Positions 2,843 through 51,822 of a stretch of DNA of 64,000 bases are shown here, one piece after another; position 1 is the first letter of the stretch, and each line of letters opens with the position of its first letter. The notes under the pieces were generated by a model, which worked only from the letters and a program-made list of their open reading frames with translations, made no database searches and was not told the DNA's origin. A program made the translations under genes and the position numbers. Origin of the DNA: Candidatus Tayloriibacteriota bacterium. Lineage in GTDB: Bacteria > Patescibacteriota > Minisyncoccia > Phycocordibacterales > PALSA-1337. Location of the stretch: the NCBI GenBank assembly GCA_052034805.1, contig JBPOID010000007.1, positions 26,495-90,494 of the forward strand. The letters are read 5' to 3'.

Positions 2843-4630
2843 ATGAAAAAAACAAAAAGAATTAAGAATAAAATAAATACAGAATGGAATCTGAAGCTTT
2901 TATATAGTGGATATAATGATGCAAAGATAGAAAAAGATATAGAAAATACAGAAAAGATGATAAATGATTTCGCTTCCAAATATGATATTTCTGATAAGAA
3001 TTATTTAAAAGATGAAAATGCTTTATACGAAATATTATCTGATTATGAAAGATTAAGTGAAATTACAGAGAATAATGCTATTACTTATTTTTCTCTATCA
3101 CAAGATCTAAATGCAAATGATAGAATCGCTAGTTCAAAACTAGCTTTACTTTCTAATCGTATGGCAAAGCTTGGTAATAAATTAACATTCTTCGAAATCT
3201 CAATAGGGAAAATAGAAAAGGATTTACAAGATAAATTCCTCAAAAGTGATAAACTCAAACATTTTAGAGTATTTTTGAAAAGAATTTTTGATGATGCAAA
3301 ATATTCATTATCTATACCAGAAGAGAAAATAATGAGCTTGAAATCACAACCAGCTTATGAAATGTGGGTTTCTGGCAATGAAAAGATTTTGAATATGAAA
3401 ACTATTAAGTTTAAAGGTGAAGTTATGCCTATTTCGAAGGCTATGAGCACTATGCGTTATCTTTCTAAATCTGCTGATAGAGAGAAATTAAGTACAGAGA
3501 TAAATAAAGTCCTAAAAGAAGTAGCATCTTTTTCTGAGGCCGAAATAAATGCTGTTATTACAAATAAAAAGATAAATGATGAATTAAGAGGTTATAAGAC
3601 ACCTTATGAAAACAGAATAGTAAGTTGTGAAAATGATTCAAAAGTCGTAGATGATCTAGTAAATATAGTTACTCAAGGTTTCCGTATATCACATAAGTTT
3701 TACAAATTAAAAGCAAAATTATTAAATAAAAAGAGATTAAGTTATGAAGATAGATCTGTAAGTATCGGTAAAATAAAATCATCTTTTAGTTTCAATGATT
3801 CTATATCTTTATTCAAAAAGACTTTAGATAATGTAGATAATAAATTCACAGAGATTCTAAATAGTTATTTAGAAAATGGCCAAATAGATGTATATCCGAA
3901 AATAGGGAAGACTGGCGGTGCTTATTGCGCTGGTTCCTATAAAACACCAACTTTTGTATTATTGAATCATGTTGATGGATTGAATTCATTTTCGACTTTA
4001 GCACATGAGATGGGACACGCTTTCCACACTGAACTCTCCAAATCACAAGGAATCCTATACCATGGATATTCTACTTCACTAGCAGAAACAGCAAGTACAT
4101 TATTTGAAGCATTAGCTTTTGAGAGTGTTTTTGAAAAATTATCACCAAAAGAACAAATAATAGTATTACACGATAGAATAAGTGATGATATCTCCACAGT
4201 TTTCAGACAAATAGCTTGTTTTAATTTTGAATTAGAACTTCACAATACTATACGTGAAAAAGGATTTTTATCTAAAGAAGAAATAGCAAATATTCATAAT
4301 AAAAATATGAAAGCTTATCTAGGTCCCAATTTTGATCTAAAAGAAGATGATGGTTATTTCTTTGTTGTTTGGAGTCATATAAGAAATTTCTTTTATGTAT
4401 ATACCTATGCTTATGGTCAACTTGTAAGCAAGGCACTTTTTGCAAAATATAAAGAAGATAAAAACTTTTGGAAATCAATAGATAGATTCCTAAGTTCAGG
4501 TGGAAAGGCTAGTCCAGAAGAAATATTAAAGGAAATAGGTCTTGATGTTTATAATGGTGAGGTTTGGAAAAAAGGATTGGCTCAAATAGAGAGTGATATA
4601 GATAGATTGGAGAAATTGACTAAAATTTGA
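2843..4630 (+). CDS. pepF: Oligoendopeptidase F (M3 family metallopeptidase)
   Basis: HEMGHAFH zinc-binding HExxH motif, 595 aa, M3B-like layout. Confidence 0.75.
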   Translation: MKKTKRIKNKINTEWNLKLLYSGYNDAKIEKDIENTEKMINDFASKYDISDKNYLKDENALYEILSDYERLSEITENNAITYFSLSQDLNANDRIASSKLALLSNRMAKLGNKLTFFEISIGKIEKDLQDKFLKSDKLKHFRVFLKRIFDDAKYSLSIPEEKIMSLKSQPAYEMWVSGNEKILNMKTIKFKGEVMPISKAMSTMRYLSKSADREKLSTEINKVLKEVASFSEAEINAVITNKKINDELRGYKTPYENRIVSCENDSKVVDDLVNIVTQGFRISHKFYKLKAKLLNKKRLSYEDRSVSIGKIKSSFSFNDSISLFKKTLDNVDNKFTEILNSYLENGQIDVYPKIGKTGGAYCAGSYKTPTFVLLNHVDGLNSFSTLAHEMGHAFHTELSKSQGILYHGYSTSLAETASTLFEALAFESVFEKLSPKEQIIVLHDRISDDISTVFRQIACFNFELELHNTIREKGFLSKEEIANIHNKNMKAYLGPNFDLKEDDGYFFVVWSHIRNFFYVYTYAYGQLVSKALFAKYKEDKNFWKSIDRFLSSGGKASPEEILKEIGLDVYNGEVWKKGLAQIESDIDRLEKLTKI

Positions 4631-9045: not shown

Positions 9046-9315
9046 ATGGTGAGACGTGCTAAATTGATGCAACAAGATATCAATAATACCAATAATTTAA
9101 GGCAAAAAAATACAGCAAATTCATCTTATGGAGTTGTTGTAGAAGCATTGCCGAACACCTTATTTAGGGTCAAAATTGATGGTAAAGATGACATTGTAAT
9201 GGCATATTTGGCTGGTAAGATGAGAATGCACCGTATAAAGGTTCTTATAGGAGATAAGGTAGAACTTACTCTAGATCCATATGGTGGAAGGGCAAGGATT
9301 AGTAAAAGACTTTAA
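9046..9315 (+). CDS. infA: Translation initiation factor IF-1 (start may be internal)
   Basis: [57 protein letters not shown] matches the IF-1 S1-like fold. Confidence 0.85.
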
Positions 9316-9320
9316 ATATA

Positions 9321-9437
9321 ATGAAAGTAAAAGCTTCAGTAAAACCGATTTGTGCAAAATGTAGTGTGGTCCGAAGAAAAGGCTATGTATATGTGATTTG
9401 TTCTGCAAATCCTAGACATAAGCAAAGACAAGGTTAA
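9321..9437 (+). CDS. rpmJ: 50S ribosomal protein L36
   Basis: Not in the ORF track (under 60 aa). Translation [38 protein letters not shown] is a canonical L36 zinc ribbon. It sits between infA and rpsM as expected. Confidence 0.9.
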
Positions 9438-9446
9438 AATATTTAT

Positions 9447-31319: not shown

Positions 31320-31350
31320 GAAAAAGCGCGGGGCAGGCCGCGCTTTCTAA
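31320..31350. terminator. GC-rich bidirectional terminator hairpin
   Basis: agcgcgg-ggcagg-ccgcgct flanked by A-run and T-run. It serves the minus-strand gene 31381..31641. Confidence 0.55.
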
Positions 31351-31380
31351 TTTTGTCGTCCCTTGGGAGACGATGTATTG

Positions 31381-31641
31381 TTACGCCGCGATGGCGTGAT
31401 GTTCTTGAATCCTTGGCAAAGCCATAAGGAAACCGAGAAACGTATTCTCTGTAACAATGACTCCATCTGCTTTTTGGACATTATGAGTCATCTCTGTATT
31501 CGTGGGTATAGGATCAACTTCCATACGGAAGCTGTATCTTGTAAGTCTCGTAGCTTTTTCTGGTGTAAGCTCCGAAGCTTGTCTCGTGAATTCCTCGAGA
31601 CTTTCAGTGTCTCTCAAATCTAGCAATACCATAAGTTTCAT
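31381..31641 (-). CDS. Hypothetical small protein (GC-enriched)
   Basis: 86-aa ORF, about 47 % GC, with its own terminator. No family recognised. Confidence 0.35.
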   Translation of the reverse strand: MKLMVLLDLRDTESLEEFTRQASELTPEKATRLTRYSFRMEVDPIPTNTEMTHNVQKADGVIVTENTFLGFLMALPRIQEHHAIAA

Positions 31642-31778
31642 TGACTATCTTTTGACTTTGACCAGCCATGGTTTTGATCAAAAGACATTTACTAATCTGC
31701 CATCACTATATGATAGTTTGGTATAAAAATCAAGTGTATTTGTTGATAATTAGATTATCAGTATTTATCGGTTTTTTA

Positions 31779-31943
31779 ATAATTACTTATTTTAAATCCA
31801 ATATAAATACCCAATATTCCACCTATAGCGGTAAATATTATAGATGAAAAGGAAAGCATTCCTTCTCCCCATATACTAGGTATAAAACCGCCAATAGTTG
31901 AACCTATAAACATTCCTATCCAAATTAAAGTTTTTGAACTCAT
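31779..31943 (-). CDS. Small hydrophobic protein (about 54 aa, two predicted TM helices)
   Basis: Not in the ORF track. Translation MSSKTLIWIGMFIGSTIGGFIPSIWGEGMLSFSSIIFTAIGGILGIYIGFKISNY is cleanly hydrophobic. Located just downstream of the MFS gene on the same strand. Confidence 0.35.
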
Positions 31944-31950
31944 ATAGAGA

Positions 31951-35742: not shown

Positions 35743-36045
35743 TCAATCTAAGATCCCACATTGACCCTGATTGGGGATCCAAAGCACCGCTTCAGGCCAC
35801 TTTAGAGTTGATCTTTGAAGATTTTGAGGAAAATGAATGACTCGTCCGTCAGGGAAATGGGTGATTTTCGAAATCTTTCCTAGAATCGTCCCCCATTCAC
35901 CATAATAACGGTGTGAGATAAGAATCTCTGTTCCGTTCGAAAGTGCTTGTTCAAAAGCTTCTTTCGATGGGATATTGTCACGCTTAATCCCTATAAAGAT
36001 ACTTCTGGGATTTGAAGGGTAGCCATTTCGGTCTAGACGTGCCAT
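35743..36045 (-). CDS. Hypothetical protein (GC-enriched island)
   Basis: 100-aa ORF, about 47 % GC, followed by a terminator. No family recognised. Confidence 0.3.
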   Translation of the reverse strand: MARLDRNGYPSNPRSIFIGIKRDNIPSKEAFEQALSNGTEILISHRYYGEWGTILGKISKITHFPDGRVIHFPQNLQRSTLKWPEAVLWIPNQGQCGILD

Positions 36046-36075
36046 ACCTGTCCTTTCTTTTTTGAGTTGATGGGT

Positions 36076-36630
36076 TTAGCGAAGTGCGAGCAGTACCACA
36101 ACGAGGTGAAGCCATAAGCAGTTCACAGGATAAACCAAATCTTGCTTTTGTCCTTTCCACCGGAGAATTACAACGATGGTTTGAAAAGCAAACGAGATGG
36201 TCCATAGAAACCAGCATAGGGCGATTTCATTTTGAGGTTTTGTCCAGACACTTTGCAATGTCGGGATGAAACCAATGGTTATACCGAGCTGGAGCATCAT
36301 ATTGGTAACAGTGGGAGACTTGAGTTTCCACCACAAGAGACTTGCTGTGATACCAATCACGAGAACAATACTATCATTTGTACTCAATCCTTTGAGTTGT
36401 CCTTGGAAAAGGGTAAGTAAAAAGGTAAGTATGCATTGAATACTGCTAATGGTTGGAAGAAGACTCTTCCAACCATCCTTGCTCATCGCTTTATAGGAAG
36501 TGAAATTAAGGAGCGTCATAAAGCCCCATACTGCCCATGAAGTGATATTGGGATTGGCATGTCCTTGTAAAGTCTGCCAATTATAGATACCGAAAGCGAG
36601 AACATTTATAAGTCCCGCCATAACACCCAA
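36076..36630 (-). CDS. Hypothetical polytopic membrane protein, paralog B (partner at 27600..28169)
   Basis: Shared motif GFIPTLQSVWTKPQNE and the same length and topology as paralog A, but in a GC-rich context. Confidence 0.5.
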   Translation of the reverse strand: MGVMAGLINVLAFGIYNWQTLQGHANPNITSWAVWGFMTLLNFTSYKAMSKDGWKSLLPTISSIQCILTFLLTLFQGQLKGLSTNDSIVLVIGITASLLWWKLKSPTVTNMMLQLGITIGFIPTLQSVWTKPQNEIALCWFLWTISFAFQTIVVILRWKGQKQDLVYPVNCLWLHLVVVLLALR

Positions 36631-36788
36631 AAGAATGTCTAGTTTCAGAAAATTTCCTCTGTATAGCCTGACGGGATTGTCAGTCTTTTATCATATTACA
36701 ATATAAATAGTATAAAGTCAAATATACTTTGGGTTAATCTAATCTCTAATTACAATACTTAATATTTCTATTATTTATTTTATATAAT

Positions 36789-37034
36789 CTAAGATTTCTT
36801 CCATCTAGGGGCGAATCTAATCATCCAAGCAAAAAATTTAGCTTTGATTGGACTAGTACCATTTTTTCTCATTTGTTCATAACAGACTTTCTGAAATCCT
36901 TTAAGATCTCCCTCATAACAAAGCTTTCCTCCTTTAAAACAATAACTACAATAACGTGGATTCTCACGATTATCTCCCATCGGGTCCATATTAAATGGCA
37001 TTAGACAACTCTCACAACTTTTTGTTTTATTCAT
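36789..37034 (-). CDS. Zinc-ribbon domain protein (Zn_ribbon_2-like)
   Basis: CESCLMPF...ENPRYCSYCFKGG pattern resembles the family CxxCGMPL...YCSYC. Confidence 0.5.
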   Translation of the reverse strand: MNKTKSCESCLMPFNMDPMGDNRENPRYCSYCFKGGKLCYEGDLKGFQKVCYEQMRKNGTSPIKAKFFAWMIRFAPRWKKS

Positions 37035-37065
37035 GGTATTTATTATATCACTTTTTATATAAAAA

Positions 37066-38532
37066 CTACTCTAAATCAAATCTAACTACACACTTATCAG
37101 CCCGTACTCTCGGAAGATTAAGTCTACTCCATTCGGTATCGCCACCTTTGAGACTTATAGCTTTTATTCCAACTTGCTCGGCTTTGTAAGCGGCCAATCG
37201 GCTTGTATTGCCACGTCTGCAGACAAATATGACAGCTGTATTTTTGATCAGGTTTTTCTTGTTCTTTTTGAGATAGTCATCAAGACTATGAACTGGGACA
37301 TGGATTGATCCAGGAATATGATGGTCCTCGTACTCGCTATCATTTCTTACGTCAATAACAAGATAGCCATCTTTGTGAGCAATTTCTTCTTTATGCTTAA
37401 CTTTCTCCCAAATTTGTTCAGGTGTTTCGGTAAAGAGTAGTGAAAATGTCTCCTGTGAGTCGAGTTCTTTGATAGTTGGAATAGGTGTGGCAGGAATATG
37501 AGCGCCTTTTTCTTTGAGTAATTGCTCGTTTTCAATTTTTGGAAAATGTGACGGGTCGAGGTATTCAAAATACTCATCAATATATGGAAATGGACTATCA
37601 GGACAGACAAATACTGCAATCTTTTCCTCGCCAGACAATCTTTGCTTTGAAAGATGATTGAGAAGACCGACAAGCGCAAAGCCAGAACTTGGTCCGACAA
37701 AAAGTCCTGCACGACAGAGGTCCATAGACATTTTGAATGATTCGGTTGTGCCGATTTCTACCTGATGATCAAGTACAGACTTCCAGTCAAAGGCAATCTC
37801 TCGTAAGAGATTGTTTGTTCGCACCCCGGGTACTGGGTTGTTGGCAATACGAGATACTCCAACTATTTCAATGTCTGACTTTTTCTCTTTGAGATATGAA
37901 CCGATACCAACAACTGATCCAGTCGTACCAAGACCAACTGATAACATCGATATCTTGCCCTTAGTTTGTTCCCATATCTGCGGACCAGTCCATTTGTAGT
38001 GAGCGGCAGGATTGGCCTCATTGTCATATTGACCAGGATTAAACCATCCTTTTTCCTTGGACCACACTTTTGCTTTGTAGATTCCGCTTGTAGGATCGCT
38101 TGGATCAGGACAGATCGGCTCTTTATTGACGATAACTTCGTTACCGAGGAATCGTAGGATATTCAATTTGCCTCGGCTTACCTCATGAGACACAACTGCC
38201 TTGGTGTGGGGTATGCCCATAAGTCGTGCTATAACAGCCAGTGAGAAAACAGTATTGCCTGAAGAATTTTCGATAATAGTATCAGGCAATAATCCTTTTT
38301 CTTTACGGTCCAAAAGCATATTGTATGCAGGCAATGACTTTACATTCGCAAGTGGCAATGCATTCATAAGCTTGGCAAAAATACGCACGCCGTCTTTGCG
38401 ATACGGATTCAGGTGGTCGGGTATCTCTACAAGTGGCGTGTATGGCGCATTGTCGGGGTTGAGAAAATCAAGAACAGCGTCGCTGCCTTCAAAAGTATTG
38501 AGTATTTTTTGTTCGTTAGTTTTTGGAATCAT
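37066..38532 (-). CDS. Fusion of a PLP-dependent cysteine-synthase-like (fold type II) enzyme with a rhodanese domain
   Basis: N-terminal TPLVEIP...NVKSLPAYNML...GTTGSVVGIGSYL matches the CysK/CBS-family layout. C-terminal YLVIDVRNDSEYEDHHIPGSIHVP...FVCRRGNTS is a rhodanese with catalytic Cys. Confidence 0.6.
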   Translation of the reverse strand: MIPKTNEQKILNTFEGSDAVLDFLNPDNAPYTPLVEIPDHLNPYRKDGVRIFAKLMNALPLANVKSLPAYNMLLDRKEKGLLPDTIIENSSGNTVFSLAVIARLMGIPHTKAVVSHEVSRGKLNILRFLGNEVIVNKEPICPDPSDPTSGIYKAKVWSKEKGWFNPGQYDNEANPAAHYKWTGPQIWEQTKGKISMLSVGLGTTGSVVGIGSYLKEKKSDIEIVGVSRIANNPVPGVRTNNLLREIAFDWKSVLDHQVEIGTTESFKMSMDLCRAGLFVGPSSGFALVGLLNHLSKQRLSGEEKIAVFVCPDSPFPYIDEYFEYLDPSHFPKIENEQLLKEKGAHIPATPIPTIKELDSQETFSLLFTETPEQIWEKVKHKEEIAHKDGYLVIDVRNDSEYEDHHIPGSIHVPVHSLDDYLKKNKKNLIKNTAVIFVCRRGNTSRLAAYKAEQVGIKAISLKGGDTEWSRLNLPRVRADKCVVRFDLE

Positions 38533-39484
38533 GGCTAAAAGTAAATTCAGGGTCTATTTGGTTTGTAAGATCACCGAATCGTTCTTTTACAAAACCCTGT
38601 GCGACGTATTTTTTATGTAATTCCCAGATTTTTTTGAGTCTCGCATCTCGATTGTCTGGTTCGGCATTTAATGTACTAAAAACTTTCTCAAGTAATTCTT
38701 GATTATTGATATTAAGTTTCGATACAGACAATGCGGCACCATCTTGGTCGATAGTGCGAATATGTTCGTCATCAGTGAAGAATCCGATGATCTTTTTCTC
38801 GGTAATATGCGATTTTATAAATTCCATATCATTATCATTTCTGATTTTGTTACCAATTACTCGCACGCTATCTGCGACATCGGCTTCAGTCGCCAATTCC
38901 ATGTATTTGGTATAAACCTCAATACTTCGCATGGTTGGTTCAACGATGAGGCAGGTCAGATCGAACTGAGCATGAAGTGTCCCTGCAAATGAATCTACCC
39001 CTGCGACCATATCAGCAATTACATAGCCGTTCTTGTCGTCGGTGTGATTCAAAATGCTTTCGAGGATGGCAAGATTGTTGTGATAGCAACTAGCGCCGAT
39101 GTCTTCTTCTTGGTAGGTACCAACCGCAAAGACAGAAAGATTGCCTCGATGAAGTCCGTACGAGCCGATAGGTGTCTCCTTGATTGATTCAATTTTTATA
39201 ATGTTCGACTTGCGTGTCGGCGGTGTTGATTTGCGGAATGCACCAAGGTTTGTAATGTCGTTGTTACCAATAAGCCACTTTTTTATTTCCTCTGACACTT
39301 TCGGGTGCGATAGATGTTTATCGAAGGGAATACCATCAAAACCAAGTAGCTCTGGTGCATGGATGTTGAGATCAGCATCAAAAACAGCTACCTCTTCGGT
39401 AGTCTTTTTTGAAACATATGTGGCGAATGAGGCGGAAAGCGTACTCTTGCCCGATCCGCCTTTTCCAACAAAGGCGATTCTCAT
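38516..39484 (-). CDS. MinD/ParA-superfamily P-loop ATPase (CooC-like)
   Basis: Deviant Walker A IAFVGKGGSGKST and downstream VFDAD. Overlaps the PLP/rhodanese gene by 17 nt. Confidence 0.6.
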   Translation of the reverse strand: MRIAFVGKGGSGKSTLSASFATYVSKKTTEEVAVFDADLNIHAPELLGFDGIPFDKHLSHPKVSEEIKKWLIGNNDITNLGAFRKSTPPTRKSNIIKIESIKETPIGSYGLHRGNLSVFAVGTYQEEDIGASCYHNNLAILESILNHTDDKNGYVIADMVAGVDSFAGTLHAQFDLTCLIVEPTMRSIEVYTKYMELATEADVADSVRVIGNKIRNDNDMEFIKSHITEKKIIGFFTDDEHIRTIDQDGAALSVSKLNINNQELLEKVFSTLNAEPDNRDARLKKIWELHKKYVAQGFVKERFGDLTNQIDPEFTFSHDSKN

Positions 39485-39487
39485 ATA

Positions 39488-39835
39488 TTAATCGGTGCAC
39501 TTATTACAAGACCCTCGAACAGTAATATCTTCAACCTTATGACCCTTGATCGCTTTGTGGGGAATATGTATTTCTTCAACCTTTCCGCAATCATTGCAGA
39601 TGAAATGATCATGGCTTTCGTGAGCTGATTCATACGCCACAGACTTGTTATCAATCATCACTCTCTTTATCTTCTTGTCAGAGAGTAGTTGCTCGACATT
39701 GCGAAAGACTGTCGAATAATCGGCATCGGGAATAACTTTATGGATTTCAGCAATGGTCAAAAGATGCTTTTTCTTGAGCAATGTAAGTATATGTTCTTTG
39801 TATATGTTTGTTCTCATAATGCAAGTAATTTGCAT
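39488..39835 (-). CDS. Fur-family metalloregulator
   Basis: N-terminal winged helix, HESHDHFICNDCGKVEEI and a C-terminal CNKC. 4 nt upstream of the ATPase gene. Confidence 0.7.
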   Translation of the reverse strand: MQITCIMRTNIYKEHILTLLKKKHLLTIAEIHKVIPDADYSTVFRNVEQLLSDKKIKRVMIDNKSVAYESAHESHDHFICNDCGKVEEIHIPHKAIKGHKVEDITVRGSCNKCTD

Positions 39836-39900
39836 AATAAACTAAGACAAGAGAAAAGTAAAGTTCCAGATAATGCAGGAAAATGATAAAATGACACAAC

Positions 39901-41067
39901 ATGACACGATTACACAAAATTACGCTTGGTATGCTTTTTGCACTCTGCCTCGTATCTCCAGTATTGGTGCAGGCTCAAGAACTCATTCAGGATAAGGTAG
40001 ATATTATTCGAGCAAAGGTGCTTGAAATTGTAAAAGAAGAAGTTAAAAATGTTCCCGGAACAGATATTCGATCACAAAATCAGACAATCAAGGTTGAAAT
40101 TCTCGAAGGAAATGAAAAAGGAAAACAGCTCACCGTCGATAACGATTACTTAAATCTAGATGTTGGAGAAGTCTTTTATTTGAGACATCAATATGGTGGT
40201 ATGGATGGGACTAACTATTATTCAGTCGATGAACCGTATCGTCTACCTCATGTACTCATTCTCGTAGCTCTTTTTATAATTGCTATTTTTGTATTTGGTG
40301 GCATTCAAGGTGTGCGTGGACTGGTGAGTCTTGTCGGTAGTTTTCTTTTGATTATGTACGTGCTCTTGCCTGGAATACTGCATGGATATTCGCCACTCTT
40401 AGTAACGATAGGTGTGTCTTCGCTCATTATCATCGTCGGATCATATATCACGCATGGTTTTAACAAGACGACAAGCTCGGCGGTTCTAGGAATGGTTATC
40501 ACCGTTATCATCACCGGACTTCTTGCTGTCTGGGCGGTCCATTTCACTCGACTCAGTGGCTTCGGTTCAGAAGAAGTTACTTATCTCAATCTAAATACGA
40601 GAGGTACACTCGATGTGATCGGACTTCTCCTTGGTGGAATCATGATTGGTCTCCTCGGGGTGCTCTATGACGTAGCTATTGGTCAGGCGATTTCAGTTGA
40701 GGAGTTGATTCGCATTGCGCCTCATGTACCAAAGAAAACTATATATCAACGAGCGATCCGTATCGGCCGAGAGCATATCGGGGCACTCGTGAACACTCTT
40801 GCCATAGCCTATGTCGGTGCATCCTTGCCACTTCTGCTTTTGTTCGTCCAAACATCGACTTCGAGTCTTGCTAATATTGCTAACAGAGAAATATTTGCCA
40901 CAGAGATCGTCCGTACCATGATCGGTAGTATTGGCCTTATCTTGGCCGTACCTATTACAACCTTTGTGGCCGTTTGGTTGCTTATGAGTACGAAGAAGAA
41001 CAATGTATCGCAGGAAAAACTACAGCAAGAACAAGAGGCGCTGGAACATGCCGGGCATCATCATTAA
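39901..41067 (+). CDS. Polytopic membrane protein, possibly YibE/F-like
   Basis: Signal peptide, about 100-aa extracytoplasmic domain, then 7-8 TM helices. His-rich C-terminus (HAGHHH). Confidence 0.35.
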   Translation: MTRLHKITLGMLFALCLVSPVLVQAQELIQDKVDIIRAKVLEIVKEEVKNVPGTDIRSQNQTIKVEILEGNEKGKQLTVDNDYLNLDVGEVFYLRHQYGGMDGTNYYSVDEPYRLPHVLILVALFIIAIFVFGGIQGVRGLVSLVGSFLLIMYVLLPGILHGYSPLLVTIGVSSLIIIVGSYITHGFNKTTSSAVLGMVITVIITGLLAVWAVHFTRLSGFGSEEVTYLNLNTRGTLDVIGLLLGGIMIGLLGVLYDVAIGQAISVEELIRIAPHVPKKTIYQRAIRIGREHIGALVNTLAIAYVGASLPLLLLFVQTSTSSLANIANREIFATEIVRTMIGSIGLILAVPITTFVAVWLLMSTKKNNVSQEKLQQEQEALEHAGHHH

Positions 41068-41257
41068 TTTAGTATAGATATTGCACTAGATATAGGAACC
41101 TTTTGGAAGAGAAATTATGCCAACATTTGGCTATAAAATGAGAAGCAGGGTTTTTTTGGAATTGTGAGGATGAGCGAGTAAGATTATTTAATGGAATATA
41201 AACAGAAAACCCACCATCTCACGACAGGGGTTCCTGTGCTGAGTTGGTGGGCTATGA

Positions 41258-41665
41258 TTAGAAACGAAGGTCAATCCGTGGAGCTGTAAAAATGAAGCCG
41301 TCTGCAGTCTGAAAGCAAACACATCCATTCACAGCAATACTCAAAGGTGTTTCGATAATCGTAACTTTTTGACCTTTTACGTATTCTTTCCACTCGTTGC
41401 CAACATATCGAACAACATTGCCAATCATCTTGTCTTCAAACCGAGTTGCAAATTGAATTGCTGTAGGTTTGTAGTCACGGATTTTTGCAATCTCTTCTTT
41501 GAGCTCTGGATACAGGCGCTCCATTTCAAGGAGACCGTTGTCGCAGAGATGGTGTCTGACTGAGTTCCAAAGGAACTTTGTTTCCTCGCTTAGCATATCA
41601 ATGTCTTTTCTGGTTGGTTGTTTAATTATGAAAATTGCTACTAAATGTAGTAATATCACATACAA
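41258..41665 (-). CDS. Hypothetical protein (true start probably the internal Met, MLSEETK)
   Basis: 135-aa ORF at the edge of the GC-enriched block. Confidence 0.3.
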   Translation of the reverse strand: MYVILLHLVAIFIIKQPTRKDIDMLSEETKFLWNSVRHHLCDNGLLEMERLYPELKEEIAKIRDYKPTAIQFATRFEDKMIGNVVRYVGNEWKEYVKGQKVTIIETPLSIAVNGCVCFQTADGFIFTAPRIDLRF

Positions 41666-41684
41666 ATAAATATGTCAAGTATTG

Positions 41685-41703
41685 GCTCCGCGACCAGGGC
41701 TCG
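41685..41703. repeat. 19-nt exact direct repeat of the tRNA-Asn 3' end (att-like site)
   Basis: gctccgcgaccagggctcg is identical to 43197..43215, which covers the discriminator, 3' acceptor strand and T-stem of the tRNA at 43198..43270. Confidence 0.8.
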
Positions 41704-41736
41704 GTCATTATGAATTGTAGGAAAGTAAAAATGGAA

Positions 41737-42168
41737 CTAAGACTCAGGAATTTGTTTCTTGTGTATAAATGATACAAAAGAAAAGATAACAGAAGATATA
41801 ACGCTAAGTGGCATCAAGGTTCTCCATATTGAATCCATTATAAGACCGTACTGAGGCATTGTTCCTCCGAATTGATAAGGAGTGAATATCATGATTACAT
41901 AAGAAACTAGCATACCGATAACAAGAATAAAGAAAGAAATCTTGCTCATTAGGGTGATTTTATTTTTGAATGCACAATAAATATAAAATATACCAAGATA
42001 AAGAGCTGTGATTGGAGCAAATAGTCGAGCGAAATATTGAGGATTGGTTATATGGGCAACTGAATATGAAAAATCATCATAAAACCAACTAAACATAATT
42101 ACACCAAAAATTATTAATGCTAAACCAAATAAATAGTGAAAAAATTTAATCATGGATTTATTATACAT
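41737..42168 (-). CDS. Hypothetical membrane protein (4 TM)
   Basis: 143 aa, hydrophobic, AT-rich. Confidence 0.4.
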   Translation of the reverse strand: MYNKSMIKFFHYLFGLALIIFGVIMFSWFYDDFSYSVAHITNPQYFARLFAPITALYLGIFYIYCAFKNKITLMSKISFFILVIGMLVSYVIMIFTPYQFGGTMPQYGLIMDSIWRTLMPLSVISSVIFSFVSFIHKKQIPES

Positions 42169-43192: not shown

Positions 43193-43197
43193 TTCTG

Positions 43198-43270
43198 CTC
43201 CGCGACCAGGGCTCGAACCTGGGACATCCTCGTTAACAGCGAGGCGCTCTACCAACTGAGCTATCGCGGA
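43198..43270 (-). tRNA. tRNA-Asn (anticodon GTT)
   Basis: Reverse complement folds as a cloverleaf. Acceptor TCCGCGA/TCGCGGA, D-arm GCTCAGTTGGTAGAGC, anticodon stem CCTCG/CGAGG with loop CTGTTAA, T-arm CCAGGTTCGAGCCCTGG. No CCA encoded. Confidence 0.85.
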
Positions 43271-49994: not shown

Positions 49995-50662
49995 TGTTTA
50001 AAGAGTTAAAATCTCTAAATCATCATGCGTATTTTATACATAGTTTCAAAGACTCTTCTTTGCATTTAAAGAGTTTTCTAAAAGATAAATTTAATATTAA
50101 AGAAAATAAAAACCCAGACTTTTTCCATGAAGTCTTCGAAATCATGGGTATAGATAATAGTAGAAAGATAAAAGAGAATCATTTATCCAAAAGTTTTATT
50201 AAAGATGGTAAGAAAATATTTATTATAGAATGTTCTGGTATAACACATGAAGCCCAGAATTCACTTTTGAAAATATTCGAAGAACCAAATGAGAATAGTC
50301 ATTTTTTCCTCATTATGCCTTCTCCAAATGTATTATTGCCAACACTTTTGTCTAGAATATTTATTCTAAAGAAAGATAAAGAAGATAATAAAGAGTCTAT
50401 GATACAAGCTTTGAAATTTCTCGAATTATCAAAGACAAAGAAAATAGATTTCGTAGATGAAATGGCAAAAGATATAAGTGATGAGAAAATTACAAAGAAA
50501 GATATACAGGAATTTCTTAATTCTCTAGAATCGATTCTATACGAAAATGGAATAGAAGAGAATAAAAGTATTTTAAAATCTATTATCAAAGCTAGAGACT
50601 ATATGAACGATAGATCACCTTCTATAAAACAATTATTAGAATATATAGCCTTGAATATTTAA
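49994..50662 (+). CDS. DNA polymerase III delta'/delta-like clamp-loader subunit lacking a P-loop
   Basis: SLLKIFEEPNENSHFFLIMPSPNVLLPTLLSRIFIL matches the sensor region (ALLKtLEEPp...TI.SRC) of HolB-like proteins. The N-terminus has HHAYFI but no GxxGxGK. Confidence 0.45.
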   Translation: MFKELKSLNHHAYFIHSFKDSSLHLKSFLKDKFNIKENKNPDFFHEVFEIMGIDNSRKIKENHLSKSFIKDGKKIFIIECSGITHEAQNSLLKIFEEPNENSHFFLIMPSPNVLLPTLLSRIFILKKDKEDNKESMIQALKFLELSKTKKIDFVDEMAKDISDEKITKKDIQEFLNSLESILYENGIEENKSILKSIIKARDYMNDRSPSIKQLLEYIALNI

Positions 50663-50719
50663 TATTTTTATAATTGTGGATAAATATTTGCTATACACTT
50701 GCATTTTAAAATAATAGGA

Positions 50720-51230
50720 GTATTATCTTACATTGGAACTTGTGCAGATGTTAGTTTGTTTGGTGTTTGGGTTAAGTTCAAAAGCTGACTTCGTGCATGA
50801 GTGAGTGAAAAGGTAGAACTCCGCAACAAGAAAGGGCCCCGTCCCTATGAATGCGTTTAGTTATTCATCTAACCGCCCGATGCGCCTCGATGGGAGATCC
50901 AACGATCTCTCTCCGCCTTAGTTGCCGCAGTGTGGTGTCGGTGTTGGGTTACGTTCTACTGGTTAGGAGAAACATTCTTTTAATATAGCACCTTCATGGT
51001 GTAAGAGGGAATGTAATTTTCTTCCATATCCTCTTCAATAGTCTTTAAAACCTGCTCTGGTTGTGTAAGCGTTGGCAGATCGTCATATAACCTATATAGG
51101 TAGCGTCCACATACGCCTGAAAAGGATGATATGAGTGGCGCAAAGACTAGATGTGTGGAGAAAACTCCTATTAGCACCCGTTAGACCTCCGTGTTTCTAC
51201 ATCGGATAAGTCTCGGGTGCTTTTTCTTTA
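50720..51230. ncRNA. Unassigned GC-rich structured-RNA candidate (about 500 nt, 47 % GC, no ORF)
   Basis: Sharp GC rise. Local hairpins include gagatc-caac-gatctc, atgaat/attcat, and a terminal agcacccg...cgggtgct + ttttcttt. Short, weak resemblances to RNase P conserved regions (CUAGAUG; GAAAG..CC..UCC) are insufficient to assign a family. Confidence 0.3.
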
Positions 51231-51255
51231 CATTTTTTTATTTAGACTTTTATTA

Positions 51256-51264
51256 TGTTATAAT
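51256..51264 (+). promoter_or_regulatory. Extended -10 element (TGtTATAAT) immediately upstream of the frr start codon
   Basis: tgttataat at 51256..51264, with ATG at 51271. This implies a very short or absent 5' leader if used. Confidence 0.3.
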
Positions 51265-51270
51265 CTGTAT

Positions 51271-51822
51271 ATGTCATACGATTTCAATAAATTCAAAAAA
51301 TCATTATTAGGCGTGGAAGAATGGATTAAGAAAGAATTCTCAGGTATTAGAACATCTCAGGCTAGTCCAGCGATATTAGATGGTGTAAAGATAGAATCCT
51401 ATGGTGTACTTTCTCCTTTATCCCAATTAGCTTCGGTGATAACTGAGGGTCCTAGAACGCTTCGTATTACTCCTTGGGATAATGCCCAGTCAAAAGAAAT
51501 AGAAAAAGCTATAACAGTAGCCAATCTAGGTGTTTCTGTATCTGTAGATGATAAGGGTCTTAGAGTCAATTTCCCAGAATTAACAGCAGAAAGAAGAGTA
51601 CAGATAGTGAAAATTGCAAAAGATAAATTAGAAGAAGGTAAAAAACAAATACGCACACATCGTGATGAAATAATGAAAGATTTGCAGAATAAAGAAAAAT
51701 CAGGAGATCTAGGTAAGGATGAAGTATTCCGTCACAAAAATGAAGCCCAAAAGATAGTAGATGATGCAAATAAGAAATTAGAAGAACTTTATTCAAAGAA
51801 AGAAAAGGAAATAATGTCATGA
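51271..51822 (+). CDS. frr: Ribosome recycling factor
   Basis: From the internal Met (MSYDFNKFKK) the protein is 183 aa and matches the RRF pattern (GIRTSQASPAILDGVKIESYG...TPWD...AERR). The longer ORF from 51217 adds a hydrophobic extension, which is rejected. Confidence 0.85.
   Translation: MSYDFNKFKKSLLGVEEWIKKEFSGIRTSQASPAILDGVKIESYGVLSPLSQLASVITEGPRTLRITPWDNAQSKEIEKAITVANLGVSVSVDDKGLRVNFPELTAERRVQIVKIAKDKLEEGKKQIRTHRDEIMKDLQNKEKSGDLGKDEVFRHKNEAQKIVDDANKKLEELYSKKEKEIMS

What the first reader, a model, noticed from the sequence alone, without database searches (positions are those of the whole stretch)
50720..51230. About 500-nt GC-rich non-coding segment between the holB-like gene and frr: probable structured RNA, family unassigned
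GC rises to about 47 % with no ORF on either strand. There are multiple perfect local hairpins, and the segment ends in a stem plus T-run on the plus strand. In AT-rich genomes such islands are usually structural RNAs (RNase P RNA, tmRNA, 6S, SRP RNA). I see only short, weak matches to RNase P conserved regions. I see no tmRNA T-arm (GGUUCGAUUCC) and no SRP domain-IV motif (GGAAGCAGCC). It could be a highly divergent RNase P RNA or something new.
Basis: seen in the sequence. Interest (0 to 1): 0.6.

Follow-up and report, generated by a model that had tools for sequence, protein, structure and literature searches.

The report
Unclassified structured RNA gene, CPR bacterium
The GC-rich gap between the holB-like gene and frr is most likely a separate gene for a folded non-coding RNA of about 500 nt that matches no known RNA family, occurs only in a few closely related Patescibacteria, and has no known function.

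Summary
Window 50663-51270 is a 608-nt gap with no ORF longer than 65 aa. Its GC is 0.44 in 300-nt windows, against 0.33 for the whole window.

It looks like a separate transcription unit on the + strand, about 50730-51229. It has a sigma-70-like promoter (TTGCAT-16-TATTAT) and ends in a long compound hairpin plus U-tract. frr then starts from its own conserved promoter as a leaderless mRNA.

Rfam 15 and ARAGORN find nothing, so RNase P, tmRNA, SRP and 6S RNA are not supported. Protein-coding, pseudogene, phage, plasmid and repeat origins also find no support.

Homologues exist only in a sister species (L043/L044/L063) and, for the 3' part, in L005. Separate minimum-energy folds of these sequences give the same helices. 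The 207-nt core (50964-51170) has z = -4.4. The strictly alignable 3' part has 25 pairs, 99% paired, and 6 pairs changed on both sides.

The GC-rich part (50812-50960) is an expansion at a helix tip. It is present or absent among near-identical strain variants of the sister species.

Verdict: a real, fast-evolving orphan structured RNA restricted to one lineage. Function is unknown. No transcript data are available, and the comparison rests on only about three independent sequences.

The parts
50675..50683 (-). Perfect DnaA-box consensus (TTATCCACA; reads TGTGGATAA on the + strand), 15 nt upstream of the -35 hexamer
   Evidence: The same perfect box lies within 25 nt of the holB stop codon in L043, L046, L049 and L052. 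That is 5 of only 10 perfect boxes in 169 kb of related loci. Its role is inferred, not shown.
50699..50726 (+). Promoter-like site of the RNA: -35 TTGCAT (50699-50704), 16-nt spacer, -10 TATTAT (50721-50726). The predicted start is about 50730-50733.
   Evidence: Read from the sequence. L043 has ACTTGCTT...TAATAT at the same place. ACTTGC is invariant in L003, L049, L052 and L054. The scan tool reported an overlapping site, TTGCTA-16-AATAAT, at 50688-50715. The start site is not mapped.
50730..51229 (+). Predicted RNA, about 500 nt, from ACAUUGGAA... to the U-tract
   Evidence: The helices contain G-U pairs that would be A-C mismatches on the other strand. The terminator works only on the + strand.
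50738..50802 (+). P1: a long 5' hairpin whose base is CUUGUGCA/UGCAUGAG
   Evidence: The base of the hairpin is kept in L043 (CUUGUGCAAU/GUUGUACAAG) and L005 (CUUGUUC/GAACGAG), with a G-C to U-A change. The hairpin is 65 nt here and 24 nt in L043.
50812..50960 (+). GC-rich, multi-branched expansion domain closed by GGUAGAAC/GUUCUACU. This is the source of the GC island.
   Evidence: The domain is absent from L043 and L044. A different GC-rich insert of about 185 nt sits at the tip of the corresponding helix in L063-L065, which otherwise match L043.
50825..50855 (+). Conserved entry motif of the expansion: AACAAGAAAGGGCCCCGUCCCUAUGAAUGCG. It is an A-rich stretch, a 4-bp hairpin AGGG/CCCU, then UAUGAAUGC.
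   Evidence: Shared with L063 (AACAAAGAAAGGGUCCCAUCCUUAUGAAUGCG) and partly with L005 (GGCA-ACU-UGCC then UAUGAAUGCC). The hairpin covaries. The ORF that starts here (24 aa) is not conserved, and its frame is no more open than frame +2.
50964..51170 (+). Conserved 3' core domain closed by H0 (UAGGAG 50964-50969 with CUCCUA 51165-51170)
   Evidence: Minimum-energy fold equals the centroid, -65.8 kcal/mol, z = -4.37, 0 of 200 shuffles. Separate folds of L043, L044 and L063 give the same set of helices.
50972..51014 (+). Hx arm: ACAUUC/GAAUGU with an apical hairpin CACC(50989-50992)/GGUG(50998-51001)
   Evidence: L043 has ACAAUC/GAUUGU and CAUC/GAUG. There is one change on both sides in each helix.
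51017..51030 (+). 5' strands of the long-range helices: H1a (UUUUCUUC) and H1b (CAUAUC)
   Evidence: They pair with 51157-51164 (GGAGAAAA) and 51150-51155 (GAUGUG). L043 has CACUC/GAGUG and L005 has CAUC/GAUG in H1b.
51039..51046 (+). H2 5' strand, UAGUCUUU, pairing with AAAGACUA at 51142-51149
   Evidence: L043 and L044 have AUAGU.UCUU / AAGA.ACUAU.
51050..51101 (+). J arm of the three-way junction (ACCUG/UAGGU, GGUUGUGU/AUAUAACC, GCG/CGU)
   Evidence: L043 and L044 have helices at the same positions in the fold, with quite different sequences (CCUA/UAGG, AUGAUC/GAUCAU, UACC/GGUA or GCUA/UAGC). Differences between L043 and L044 cluster in this arm.
51103..51141 (+). P arm: Pa (GCGUC/GGCGC), Pb (CAUA/UAUG), Pc (CCU-GAAA-AGG), around the conserved ACGCCUGAAAAGGAUGAU
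   Evidence: Pa is GUGUA/UACAC in L043 and L044. Pb is GGCA/UGCU in L005. Three of the 4 Pb pairs change on both sides in the model-fitted alignment.
51142..51170 (+). 3' strands of H2, H1b, H1a and H0 (AAAGACUA-GAUGUG-U-GGAGAAAA-CUCCUA)
51173..51229 (+). Intrinsic-terminator-like compound hairpin followed by UUUUUCUUU. Helices: T1 AGCACCCG/CGGGUGCU, T2 AGAC/GUCU, T3 UCC/GGA, T4 UGU/ACA.
   Evidence: The 18 pairs are 100 % paired in 5 sequences. Changes on both sides: G-C to A-U in T1, A-U to U-A in T2, and U-A to C-G in T4.
51227..51273 (+). frr's own promoter and start codon, not part of the RNA: -35-like TTTACA, extended -10 TGTTATAAT (51256-51264), ATG at 51271, only 6 nt after the -10
   Evidence: The motif TGnTAnAnT sits 6-7 nt upstream of the frr ATG in many of the relatives shown, whether the gap is 19 nt or 1016 nt. 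frr is therefore probably a leaderless mRNA, and the RNA is not its leader.

Best explanation
The segment is a separate gene for a structured non-coding RNA of about 500 nt on the + strand (about 50730-51229).

Shown by the sequence and by comparison:
- A near-consensus sigma-70-type promoter lies just after the holB-like stop codon.
- The unit ends in a compound terminator hairpin with a U-tract.
- The conserved core is a 5' hairpin (P1) plus a 207-nt 3' domain. Two stacked long-range helices (H0, H1) and H2 lead to a three-way junction with two arms.
- The GC-rich middle (50812-50960) is a helix-tip expansion that can be gained or lost among near-identical strain variants.

Inferred:
- The RNA acts in trans through its folded core, most probably as a protein-binding or scaffold RNA. 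A conserved junction core with freely varying peripheral expansions is the pattern seen in RNase P, SRP and tmRNA.
- The conserved DnaA box just upstream may tie its transcription to DnaA.

My probabilities: a real transcribed structured RNA, about 0.75. Given that, acting through a folded core or ribonucleoprotein rather than mainly by antisense pairing, about 0.5.
For: - **Own transcription unit.** Promoter-like site and terminator are read from the sequence. frr keeps its own leaderless promoter after the terminator in many of the relatives shown. Gene callers placed no gene in the gap on ten independent contigs.
- **Strand and stability.** The + strand gives -159.4 kcal/mol (z = -3.2) and the - strand -126.3 (z = -2.0). 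The core gives z = -4.4, L043 gives z = -5.8, and L063 gives z = -5.6.
- **Homology.** nhmmer finds L043/L044 (E 1e-17 and 1e-11) and L005 (E 6e-10). Covariance model R1 scores 128-145 bits on members only.
- **Structure conservation.** Separate minimum-energy folds of WIN (the window's RNA), L043, L044, L063 and, for part, L005 give the same helices. RNAalifold finds 10 pairs changed on both sides among 52. The hand-made table has 93 pairs, 30 changed on both sides, and 3 of 327 cells non-canonical. The strictly alignable 25 pairs are 99.2 % paired, with 6 changed on both sides; 0 of 500 shuffles reach this, and slid controls pair at 34-47 %.
- **Expansion at a helix tip.** The same UGACA/UGUCA helix closes a small hairpin in L043 and a 185-nt domain in L063.
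- **No known family, no protein.**
Against: - No transcript data were available, so the start site, the 3' end and expression itself are predictions.
- Only about three independent lineages carry a recognisable homologue. Formal covariation statistics such as R-scape are not possible.
- The structure was derived from the same sequences on which the pairs were counted.
- In the J and Pa arms, 'covariation' means a different helix at the same place in the fold, not column-by-column substitution.
- Some relatives have almost no holB-frr gap (19-60 nt), so the RNA is dispensable at the level of the wider group.
- Fast turnover and within-species gain or loss are also what neutral or selfish DNA would show.
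- No target, partner protein or phenotype is known.
Confidence: 0.6

Rival explanations
1. It is a long base-pairing regulatory RNA. It may also arise as a 3' extension of the mreB-holB mRNA. Its conserved single-stranded stretches (5' ACAUUGGAA, CUUCAA, the CCUGAAAA loop, UUAGC) would pair with target mRNAs, and the helices would serve only for stability.
For: It has a promoter plus an intrinsic terminator, like classical sRNAs. It evolves fast and has a narrow distribution, as many sRNAs do. No strong terminator separates holB from it; there is only an AT-rich inverted repeat at 50629-50677.
Against: At 370-520 nt with a conserved multi-helix junction, it is much larger and more elaborately folded than typical pairing sRNAs. 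No conserved complementarity to a neighbouring gene was found; a look at the frr 5' end gave only a weak match that is not conserved (my own reading, no statistic). Whether this organism has Hfq or ProQ is unknown.
Confidence: 0.15
2. It is an mRNA, or a dual-function RNA, for a small peptide. The peptide would start at the conserved UAUGAAUGC (ATG at 50847; MNAFSYSSNRPMRLDGRSNDLSPP). Peptides beginning MNA... or MKTK... occur at the matching spot in relatives.
For: An A-rich stretch followed by AUGAA is shared by WIN (the window's RNA), L063, L005, L003, L054, L049, L052 and L046. ORFs of 12-53 codons follow the ATG in all eight. A gene caller called the 53-aa ORF in L052.
Against: The peptides share nothing beyond 2-4 residues, and their lengths vary from 12 to 53 aa. 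Frame +2 is open for as long or longer in 6 of 8 sequences, so the open frames are what GC-rich sequence gives by chance. The GGG that could act as a ribosome-binding site is locked in a hairpin that covaries (AGGG/CCCU, AGGG/CCUU, GGCA/UGCC), and L005 has no such site. L043 and L044 lack the whole module. There is no Pfam hit.
Confidence: 0.08
3. It is non-functional DNA: the decayed remnant of an inserted mobile element or gene, in an intergenic hot spot, whose hairpins are incidental.
For: The holB-frr gap ranges from 19 to 1016 nt among relatives, with largely unrelated content. A 185-nt block is present or absent among near-identical strain variants. GC is higher than in the host genome, as foreign DNA might be.
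Against: There is no second copy in the 64-kb window, and there are no terminal repeats or tandem repeats. Phages and plasmids give no match, and neighbouring proteins and Pfam give none. Helices are kept through changes on both sides between species whose holB proteins are only 64-80 % identical. The promoter, terminator and 5' end are conserved. Strains from several samples are 99.3-100 % identical, and their few differences lie in the promoter spacer, in P1 and after the terminator.
Confidence: 0.07
4. It is an extremely divergent member of a universal RNA family (RNase P RNA, tmRNA, SRP RNA or 6S RNA) that covariance models fail to recognise in this fast-evolving lineage.
For: The size fits RNase P or tmRNA. 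Reduced, fast-evolving genomes often escape RNA family models (PMC4779614, abstract seen). One string, GAGAAAACUCC, is 2 mismatches from RNase P CR-I.
Against: Rfam gives no hit for any of these families even at E <= 10 with permissive filters. ARAGORN finds no tmRNA. The best matches to CR-V, the T-loop and the SRP domain-IV motifs have 3-8 mismatches. The CR-I-like string lies at the 3' end and pairs with UUUUCUUC. The RNA is missing from several relatives that keep the same gene order, which a universal essential RNA at this locus would not be. A 185-nt module comes and goes within a species.
Confidence: 0.03
5. It is a cis-regulatory leader of frr (a riboswitch, or a protein-binding attenuator) whose terminator controls read-through into frr.
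For: It lies directly upstream of frr on the same strand and ends in a terminator.
Against: A promoter with an extended -10 lies between the terminator and frr, 6-7 nt from the ATG. It is conserved in many relatives, including those with gaps of 19-60 nt and no RNA. No alternative anti-terminator pairing is conserved. At 500 nt it is far longer than known leaders.
Confidence: 0.02

Closest known systems
Orphan large structured bacterial ncRNAs found as long GC-rich intergenic regions in AT-rich genomes (for example raiA/ModT, OLE, ROOL, GOLLD; search strategy of PMC6429828, PMC8632094, PMC11109978)
   Same: It is a long, GC-rich, ORF-free intergenic region in an AT-rich genome. It has its own promoter and terminator, several junction-linked helices kept by compensatory changes, and no known function.
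   Different: No sequence or structure match to any of these families (Rfam 15). Its distribution is far narrower: three lineages found among about 30 related loci. The periphery is far more plastic, with a 150-185-nt module gained or lost among near-identical strain variants.
Bacterial RNase P RNA (Rfam RNaseP_bact_a and RNaseP_bact_b)
   Same: Similar size (about 350-500 nt). A conserved core with variable helix-tip expansions. GC-rich relative to the genome.
   Different: No CR-I to CR-V, no P4 pseudoknot signature, and no covariance-model hit at E <= 10. It ends in a transcription terminator. It is absent from some relatives with the same gene order.
tmRNA (SsrA)
   Same: Similar length and independent transcription. 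It contains a short open frame.
   Different: No tRNA-like domain, no T-arm and no pairing of the 5' and 3' ends. ARAGORN and Rfam are negative. The short frame is not conserved.
6S RNA and Ms1-type RNA-polymerase-binding RNAs
   Same: A separate, probably abundant, non-coding transcript from a housekeeping locus. A protein-binding mode is plausible.
   Different: The predicted fold is multi-branched (H0 encloses two arms and a three-way junction), not a rod with a central bubble. The ends do not pair with each other. There is no Rfam 6S hit.
Classical trans-acting sRNA genes with a sigma-70 promoter and an intrinsic terminator
   Same: Same gene anatomy: promoter, no translated frame, terminator hairpin with U-tract. 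Restricted to one lineage and fast-evolving.
   Different: Three to five times longer. Conservation lies in the helices and junctions rather than in a single-stranded seed.

Membership tests
Bacterial RNase P RNA | Match to the Rfam covariance models (RNaseP_bact_a, RNaseP_bact_b, archaeal) | tested here: not met
   No hit at gathering score in the window, nor at E <= 10 with permissive filters on 50600-51350. None in 25 related loci.
Bacterial RNase P RNA | Universally conserved regions CR-I (GAGGAAAGUCC) and CR-V (ACAGAAnnCGGCUUA), which form P4 | tested here: not met
   Best CR-I-like string is GAGAAACUCC-type (GAGAAAACUCC), 2 mismatches, at the 3' end; it pairs with UUUUCUUC instead. Best CR-V match has 6 of 15 mismatches.
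tmRNA | tRNA-like domain (acceptor stem from the 5' and 3' ends, T-arm GGUUCGAnUCC) plus a tag reading frame | tested here: not met
   ARAGORN finds only tRNA-Asn at 43197-43270. No Rfam hit. Best T-loop match has 4 of 11 mismatches. The 3' end is a terminator.
SRP RNA (4.5S / small cytoplasmic RNA) | Domain IV motif (GGAA tetraloop, AGCA/GGAAGCAGCC internal loops) and an Rfam model match | tested here: not met
   No Rfam hit. Best match to GGAAGCAGCC has 3 of 10 mismatches.
6S RNA | Rod-like fold with a closing stem from the two ends and a large central bubble; Rfam 6S models | tested here: not met
   No Rfam hit. The predicted and compared fold is multi-branched, and the ends are not paired to each other. 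The fold is predicted only, so this test is weaker than the others.
Known large orphan ncRNAs (OLE, GOLLD, ROOL, HEARO, raiA, and others in Rfam 15) | Match to the family's covariance model | tested here: not met
   No family reaches E <= 1. The only matches below E = 10 are eukaryotic or viral families at 10-21 bits.
Separate bacterial ncRNA gene (generic kind) | Own promoter and own intrinsic terminator, separate from the flanking genes | tested here: met
   TTGCAT-16-TATTAT at 50699-50726. Compound hairpin plus U-tract at 51173-51229. frr has a separate promoter downstream. This rests on sequence only.
Separate bacterial ncRNA gene (generic kind) | Secondary structure conserved through compensatory substitutions | tested here: met
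   Caveat: about three independent lineages, and the structure was derived from the same sequences.
Separate bacterial ncRNA gene (generic kind) | A discrete transcript in vivo | not testable with these tools
   No RNA-seq data can be reached from here.
cis-regulatory leader or riboswitch of frr | The regulated gene is co-transcribed, with no promoter between the element and the gene | tested here: not met
   A conserved extended -10 lies 6-7 nt upstream of the frr ATG, after the terminator. It is present in many relatives whatever the gap length.
Protein-coding gene or pseudogene | A conserved reading frame, or similarity to a protein family | tested here: not met
   ORFs are 65 aa or shorter. 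No Pfam hit. tblastn with neighbouring proteins from relatives gives E >= 0.13. The short ATG frame is no more open than frame +2.
Mobile element, MITE or repeat array (including CRISPR/TIGR-like arrays) | Multiple copies, terminal inverted repeats, or tandem units | tested here: not met
   Single copy in the window. No tandem repeats and no significant terminal repeats. No match in phages, plasmids or viral contigs.

The most novel reading that the evidence does not exclude
This could be the first described member of a new class of large structured RNAs specific to a Paceibacteria-like lineage of the Candidate Phyla Radiation. It would have a conserved junction core that works as a ribonucleoprotein or catalytic scaffold. 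It would carry a swappable, hypervariable GC-rich module at one helix tip and be transcribed under DnaA control. The unrelated-looking RNAs at the same holB-frr site in other genera (L003, L054, L049, L052, L046) would then be its fast-diverged relatives. That would make this locus a conserved home for an RNA that is essential but evolves rapidly.
Probability: 0.2. Interest if true: 0.75.

Novelty: new member of a known kind. Interest (0 to 1): 0.5.

Why it matters
CPR/Patescibacteria have tiny, densely coded genomes, and my literature searches found no paper describing non-coding RNAs of this group. A 500-nt non-coding unit kept inside a core housekeeping cluster (mreB, holB-like, frr, rseP, proS) is expensive for such a genome, so it probably does something.

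If the RNA is real and abundant, it is a new handle on the biology of these uncultured episymbionts. Its conserved core combined with a module that is gained and lost among near-identical strain variants would be an unusually clear case of modular RNA evolution. The conserved DnaA box next to its promoter suggests a testable link to the replication cycle.

If instead it proves to be neutral DNA, it marks the holB-frr spacer as an insertion hot spot. That is useful for annotation but of little wider interest.

Tried and rejected
- **Known RNA families.** Rfam 15 at gathering score on the whole window, at E <= 10 on the region, and on 25 related loci, plus ARAGORN, gave only tRNA-Asn far away.
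- **Signature motifs** of RNase P, tmRNA and SRP: no convincing match.
- **Pseudogene.** In L002 a 229-aa ORF seemed to fill the gap, but it is the holB-like gene itself. tblastn of all neighbouring proteins against the gap found nothing. The three ORFs have no Pfam hit.
- **Small peptide.** The MNA.../MKTK... frames are no more open than frame +2, and the peptides are not conserved.
- **frr leader.** Rejected because frr has its own conserved leaderless promoter.
- **Replication origin.** The perfect DnaA box and a nearby switch in gene orientation suggested oriC. However, there are 25 boxes with <= 1 mismatch in 64 kb against 22 expected, there is no cluster, the segment is GC-rich, and GC skew simply follows gene strand.
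- **Mobile element or repeat array (including TIGR/CRISPR-like).** No repeats, a single copy, and no phage, plasmid or viral match.
- **Local hairpin GGAG-AAAA-CUCC.** I first read this as a hairpin. Comparison shows instead that GGAGAAAA pairs with the upstream UUUUCUUC (H1a) and CUCCUA pairs with UAGGAG (H0).
- **Wider homology.** nhmmer and model R1 do not significantly link the RNAs of L003, L054, L049, L052, L046 and L001 to this one (best E 0.3 and 0.94, though at the matching position). MAFFT alignments misalign the covarying stems, so the helix table was made by hand.
- **More relatives.** Extra look-ups for closer relatives through frr (P0125, P0130, P0132) returned loci without the RNA.
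Full report
**Setting.** The window is AT-rich (GC 0.326) and densely coding. Around the finding the genes are priA, murA (- strand), then mreB, a 222-aa holB-like protein (Pfam DNA_pol3_delta2), frr, an M50 peptidase and proS. frr is 74-81 % identical to proteins of uncultured Patescibacteria labelled Taylorbacteria, Paceibacteria or 'Patescibacteria group'. The organism is therefore a CPR bacterium. The order holB-like then frr is kept in every relative retrieved.

**The observation.** The gap 50663-51270 is 608 nt. GC is 0.44 in 300-nt windows and up to 0.49 in 200-nt windows, against 0.25 in the adjoining spacer. The longest ORFs are 45 aa (+) and 65 aa (-), with no Pfam match. Gene callers called nothing here on ten independent contigs of the same species. 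The + strand folds to -159.4 kcal/mol (z = -3.2, 0 of 100 shuffles). The - strand folds to -126.3 (z = -2.0). The stem plus T-run is real (AGCACCCG...CGGGTGCTTTTTCTTT, 51173-51229). The simple scan missed it because the stem encloses an inner hairpin.

**Anatomy of the unit.**
- A perfect DnaA-box consensus lies at 50675-50683.
- TTGCAT (50699-50704), a 16-nt spacer and TATTAT (50721-50726) form a promoter-like site. They predict a start near 50730 (ACAUUGGAA...).
- After the terminator comes TTTACA...TGTTATAAT (51227-51264), and the frr ATG follows 6 nt later.
- The motif TGnTAnAnT sits 6-7 nt before the frr ATG in many of the relatives shown, with gaps from 19 to 1016 nt. frr therefore appears to be a leaderless mRNA with its own promoter, and the GC-rich segment is not its leader.

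**Known families.** Rfam 15 at gathering score finds only tRNA-Asn at 43198-43270 in the window. With permissive filters on 50600-51350, nothing better than eukaryotic or viral families at 10-21 bits appears. ARAGORN finds no tmRNA. Twenty-five related loci also give nothing. Signature motifs of RNase P, tmRNA and SRP are absent. The one CR-I-like string (GAGAAAACUCC) lies at the 3' end and is part of other helices.

**Relatives.**
- Strains of the same species from several samples are 99.3-100 % identical in the gap. Their few differences fall in the promoter spacer, in P1 and after the terminator.
- A sister species (holB 80 %, frr 88-89 % identical; L043, L044, L063-L065) has a clear homologue. 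Its promoter, 5' end and 3' half are conserved.
- L005/L016 (holB 64 %) shares the 3' 130 nt and some upstream motifs.
- Among about 30 distinct related loci, no other significant homologue was found by nhmmer or by covariance model R1. R1 scores members at 128-145 bits. The next best hits are L054 at E 0.3 and L049 at E 0.94, both at the matching place.
- Some relatives have a gap of only 19-60 nt.
- There is no second copy in the window and no match in phages, plasmids or viral contigs.

**Structure.** Below, WIN means the window's RNA. Minimum-energy folds computed separately for WIN, L043, L044 and L063 give the same 3' architecture:
- H0 (UAGGAG/CUCCUA) encloses an Hx hairpin arm.
- Next come the long-range helices H1a (UUUUCUUC/GGAGAAAA), H1b and H2 (UAGUCUUU/AAAGACUA).
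- H2 opens into a three-way junction with a J arm and a P arm.
- The P arm is capped by CCU-GAAA-AGG within the conserved ACGCCUGAAAAGGAUGAU.

Between species, many pairs change on both sides and stay paired:

| Helix | WIN | Relative |
|---|---|---|
| H1b | CAUAUC/GAUGUG | CACUC/GAGUG |
| Hx | ACAUUC/GAAUGU | ACAAUC/GAUUGU |
| Hx tip | CACC/GGUG | CAUC/GAUG |
| Pb | CAUA/UAUG | GGCA/UGCU |
| Pa | GCGUC/GGCGC | GUGUA/UACAC |
| T2 | AGAC/GUCU | UGAC/GUCA |
| T1 | ...G/C... | ...A/U... |

The hand-made table has 93 pairs. Thirty change on both sides, and 3 of 327 cells are non-canonical. In the J and Pa arms this means a different helix at the same place in the fold, not column-wise substitution.

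For the 25 pairs that can be aligned strictly (model-fitted alignment A7), 99.2 % of cells pair and 6 pairs change on both sides. No shuffle out of 500 reaches this, and slid controls pair at 34-47 %. RNAalifold on three sequences finds 10 such pairs among 52. The G-U pairs in these helices would be A-C mismatches on the other strand, which fixes the RNA on the + strand. The core 50964-51170 has z = -4.37, and its minimum-energy fold equals the centroid.

The caveats are the small number of independent lineages (about three) and the fact that the structure was derived from the sequences on which it was counted.

**The GC island itself.** The most GC-rich part (50812-50960) is a multi-branched domain closed by GGUAGAAC/GUUCUACU. 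L043 and L044 lack it. L063-L065, whose flanks match L043 almost base for base, carry a different GC-rich insert of about 185 nt. There the helix UGACA/UGUCA closes the insert; in L043 it closes a small hairpin. WIN and L063 share only the first 33 nt of the module (AACAAGAAAGGGnCCCnUCCyUAUGAAUGCG). After that they are unrelated. So the island is a helix-tip expansion that is gained, lost or replaced among near-identical strain variants, around a more stable core. L043 and L044 also differ almost only in the J/Pa region.

**Is a peptide encoded?** The conserved UAUGAA is followed by open frames of 12-53 codons in eight sequences. They start MNA... in WIN, L063 and L005, and MKTK... (MKTT in L054) in L003, L054, L049, L052 and L046. 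However:
- The peptides are otherwise unrelated.
- Frame +2 is open for as long or longer in six of eight sequences.
- The purine-rich stretch before the ATG is paired in a hairpin that covaries. In L005 it is GGCA/UGCC, which is not a ribosome-binding site.

Coding is therefore not supported, though it cannot be excluded.

**The wider locus.** Other genera carry unrelated-looking units at the same site, each with promoter-like and terminator-like sequences read by eye. Several share features with the window's RNA:
- ACTTGC at the -35 position.
- The DnaA box just after the holB stop. Five of the ten perfect boxes in 169 kb of loci are here.
- The A-rich stretch followed by UAUGAA.
- A GGAGAAAAAG element just before the terminator. 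In L003 this element can pair with an upstream UUCUUCUU.

These may be fast-diverged relatives, but the statistics do not show it.

**Mechanism.** Shown: the anatomy of a separate unit, conservation of promoter, ends and helices, and tolerance of large peripheral changes. Inferred: the RNA is transcribed from its own promoter and stops at its own terminator, with transcription possibly modulated by DnaA. It then acts in trans through its folded junction core.

I consider a protein-binding or scaffold role the most likely. A conserved core with variable helix tips is the pattern of ribonucleoprotein RNAs. At 370-520 nt with a conserved three-way junction, it is unlike antisense sRNAs. This last step has no direct evidence. 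My probabilities are about 0.75 for a real structured RNA and about 0.5, given that, for a folded-core or ribonucleoprotein mode.

**Comparison and novelty.** The closest known kind is the group of orphan large structured ncRNAs found as long GC-rich intergenic regions in AT-rich genomes (PMC6429828, PMC8632094, PMC11109978). It is not a member of any family in Rfam 15. I file it as a new member of that general kind. It has an unusually narrow distribution and unusually plastic periphery.

Interest is moderate (0.5). It is a plausible new RNA in a group whose non-coding RNAs my literature searches did not find described. It still lacks transcript evidence, breadth of distribution and a function.

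Noticed in passing
window 50675-50683; also L043 907-915, L046 3174-3182, L049 3205-3213, L052 2671-2679: A perfect DnaA-box consensus (TGTGGATAA on the + strand) lies within 25 nt after the holB-like stop codon in five lineages. These are 5 of only 10 perfect boxes in 169 kb of related loci. L003 has TTATCCACT in the opposite orientation just before its -35. There is no cluster of boxes, so this is not an origin. It may be a DnaA-regulated promoter.
   Followed up: partly
window 51254-51273, and the 50 nt upstream of frr in the related loci: frr appears to be a leaderless mRNA. An extended -10 (TGnTAnAnT) ends 6-7 nt before the ATG in many of the relatives shown, and no ribosome-binding site is present.
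   Followed up: partly
L054 about 3330-3440; L006 about 3905-3965; L056 about 2690-2830; L052 about 3140-3240; L001 about 3610-3680 and 3900-3990; L020 about 1770-1890: In several relatives the spacer just upstream of the frr promoter holds short units (60-100 nt). Each contains a strong Shine-Dalgarno-like sequence (AAAGGAGGnGAUC, often followed by UCUAUCU) with no obvious start codon, and each ends in a terminator hairpin. The window has none. Their function is unknown.
   Followed up: no
L003 1257-1464 and L054 3059-3265: Two genera share a 210-nt stretch at 89.5 % identity inside their holB-frr gaps. That is more conserved than the short MKT... frame just upstream of it. It is probably the core of another, or a distantly related, non-coding RNA.
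   Followed up: partly
L004 and L014 2667-3190: In these relatives holB and frr are adjacent. An ORF-free, GC-rich (about 0.50) stretch of 520 nt lies between mreB and holB instead. It has a promoter-like site and several GNRA-capped hairpins (GGUG-GAAA-CACC, GGCUC-GAAA-GGGCC). There is no Rfam hit at gathering score or at E <= 1. L058 and L062 also have large insertions between mreB and holB.
   Followed up: partly
L043 1130-1230 compared with L044 1334-1430: Two variants of the sister species are identical over the whole gap except for a stretch of about 90 nt (J arm and Pa/Pb). There, substitutions and indels cluster, yet the helices are re-formed. This suggests recombination or diversifying change within the RNA.
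   Followed up: partly
window 36000-42000: This block has GC 0.39-0.41, against 0.28-0.35 elsewhere. It lies inside a 23-kb stretch (about 26-49 kb) where most genes are on the - strand, while genes on both sides are on the + strand. It may be an inverted or acquired block.
   Followed up: no
window 9060-9440 and 31330-31950: Two other apparent gaps between ORFs of 100 aa or more are not empty. The first holds small genes that read as infA and rpmJ. The second holds short - strand ORFs. The holB-frr spacer is thus one of the few long non-coding stretches seen; several other gaps were not inspected.
   Followed up: partly
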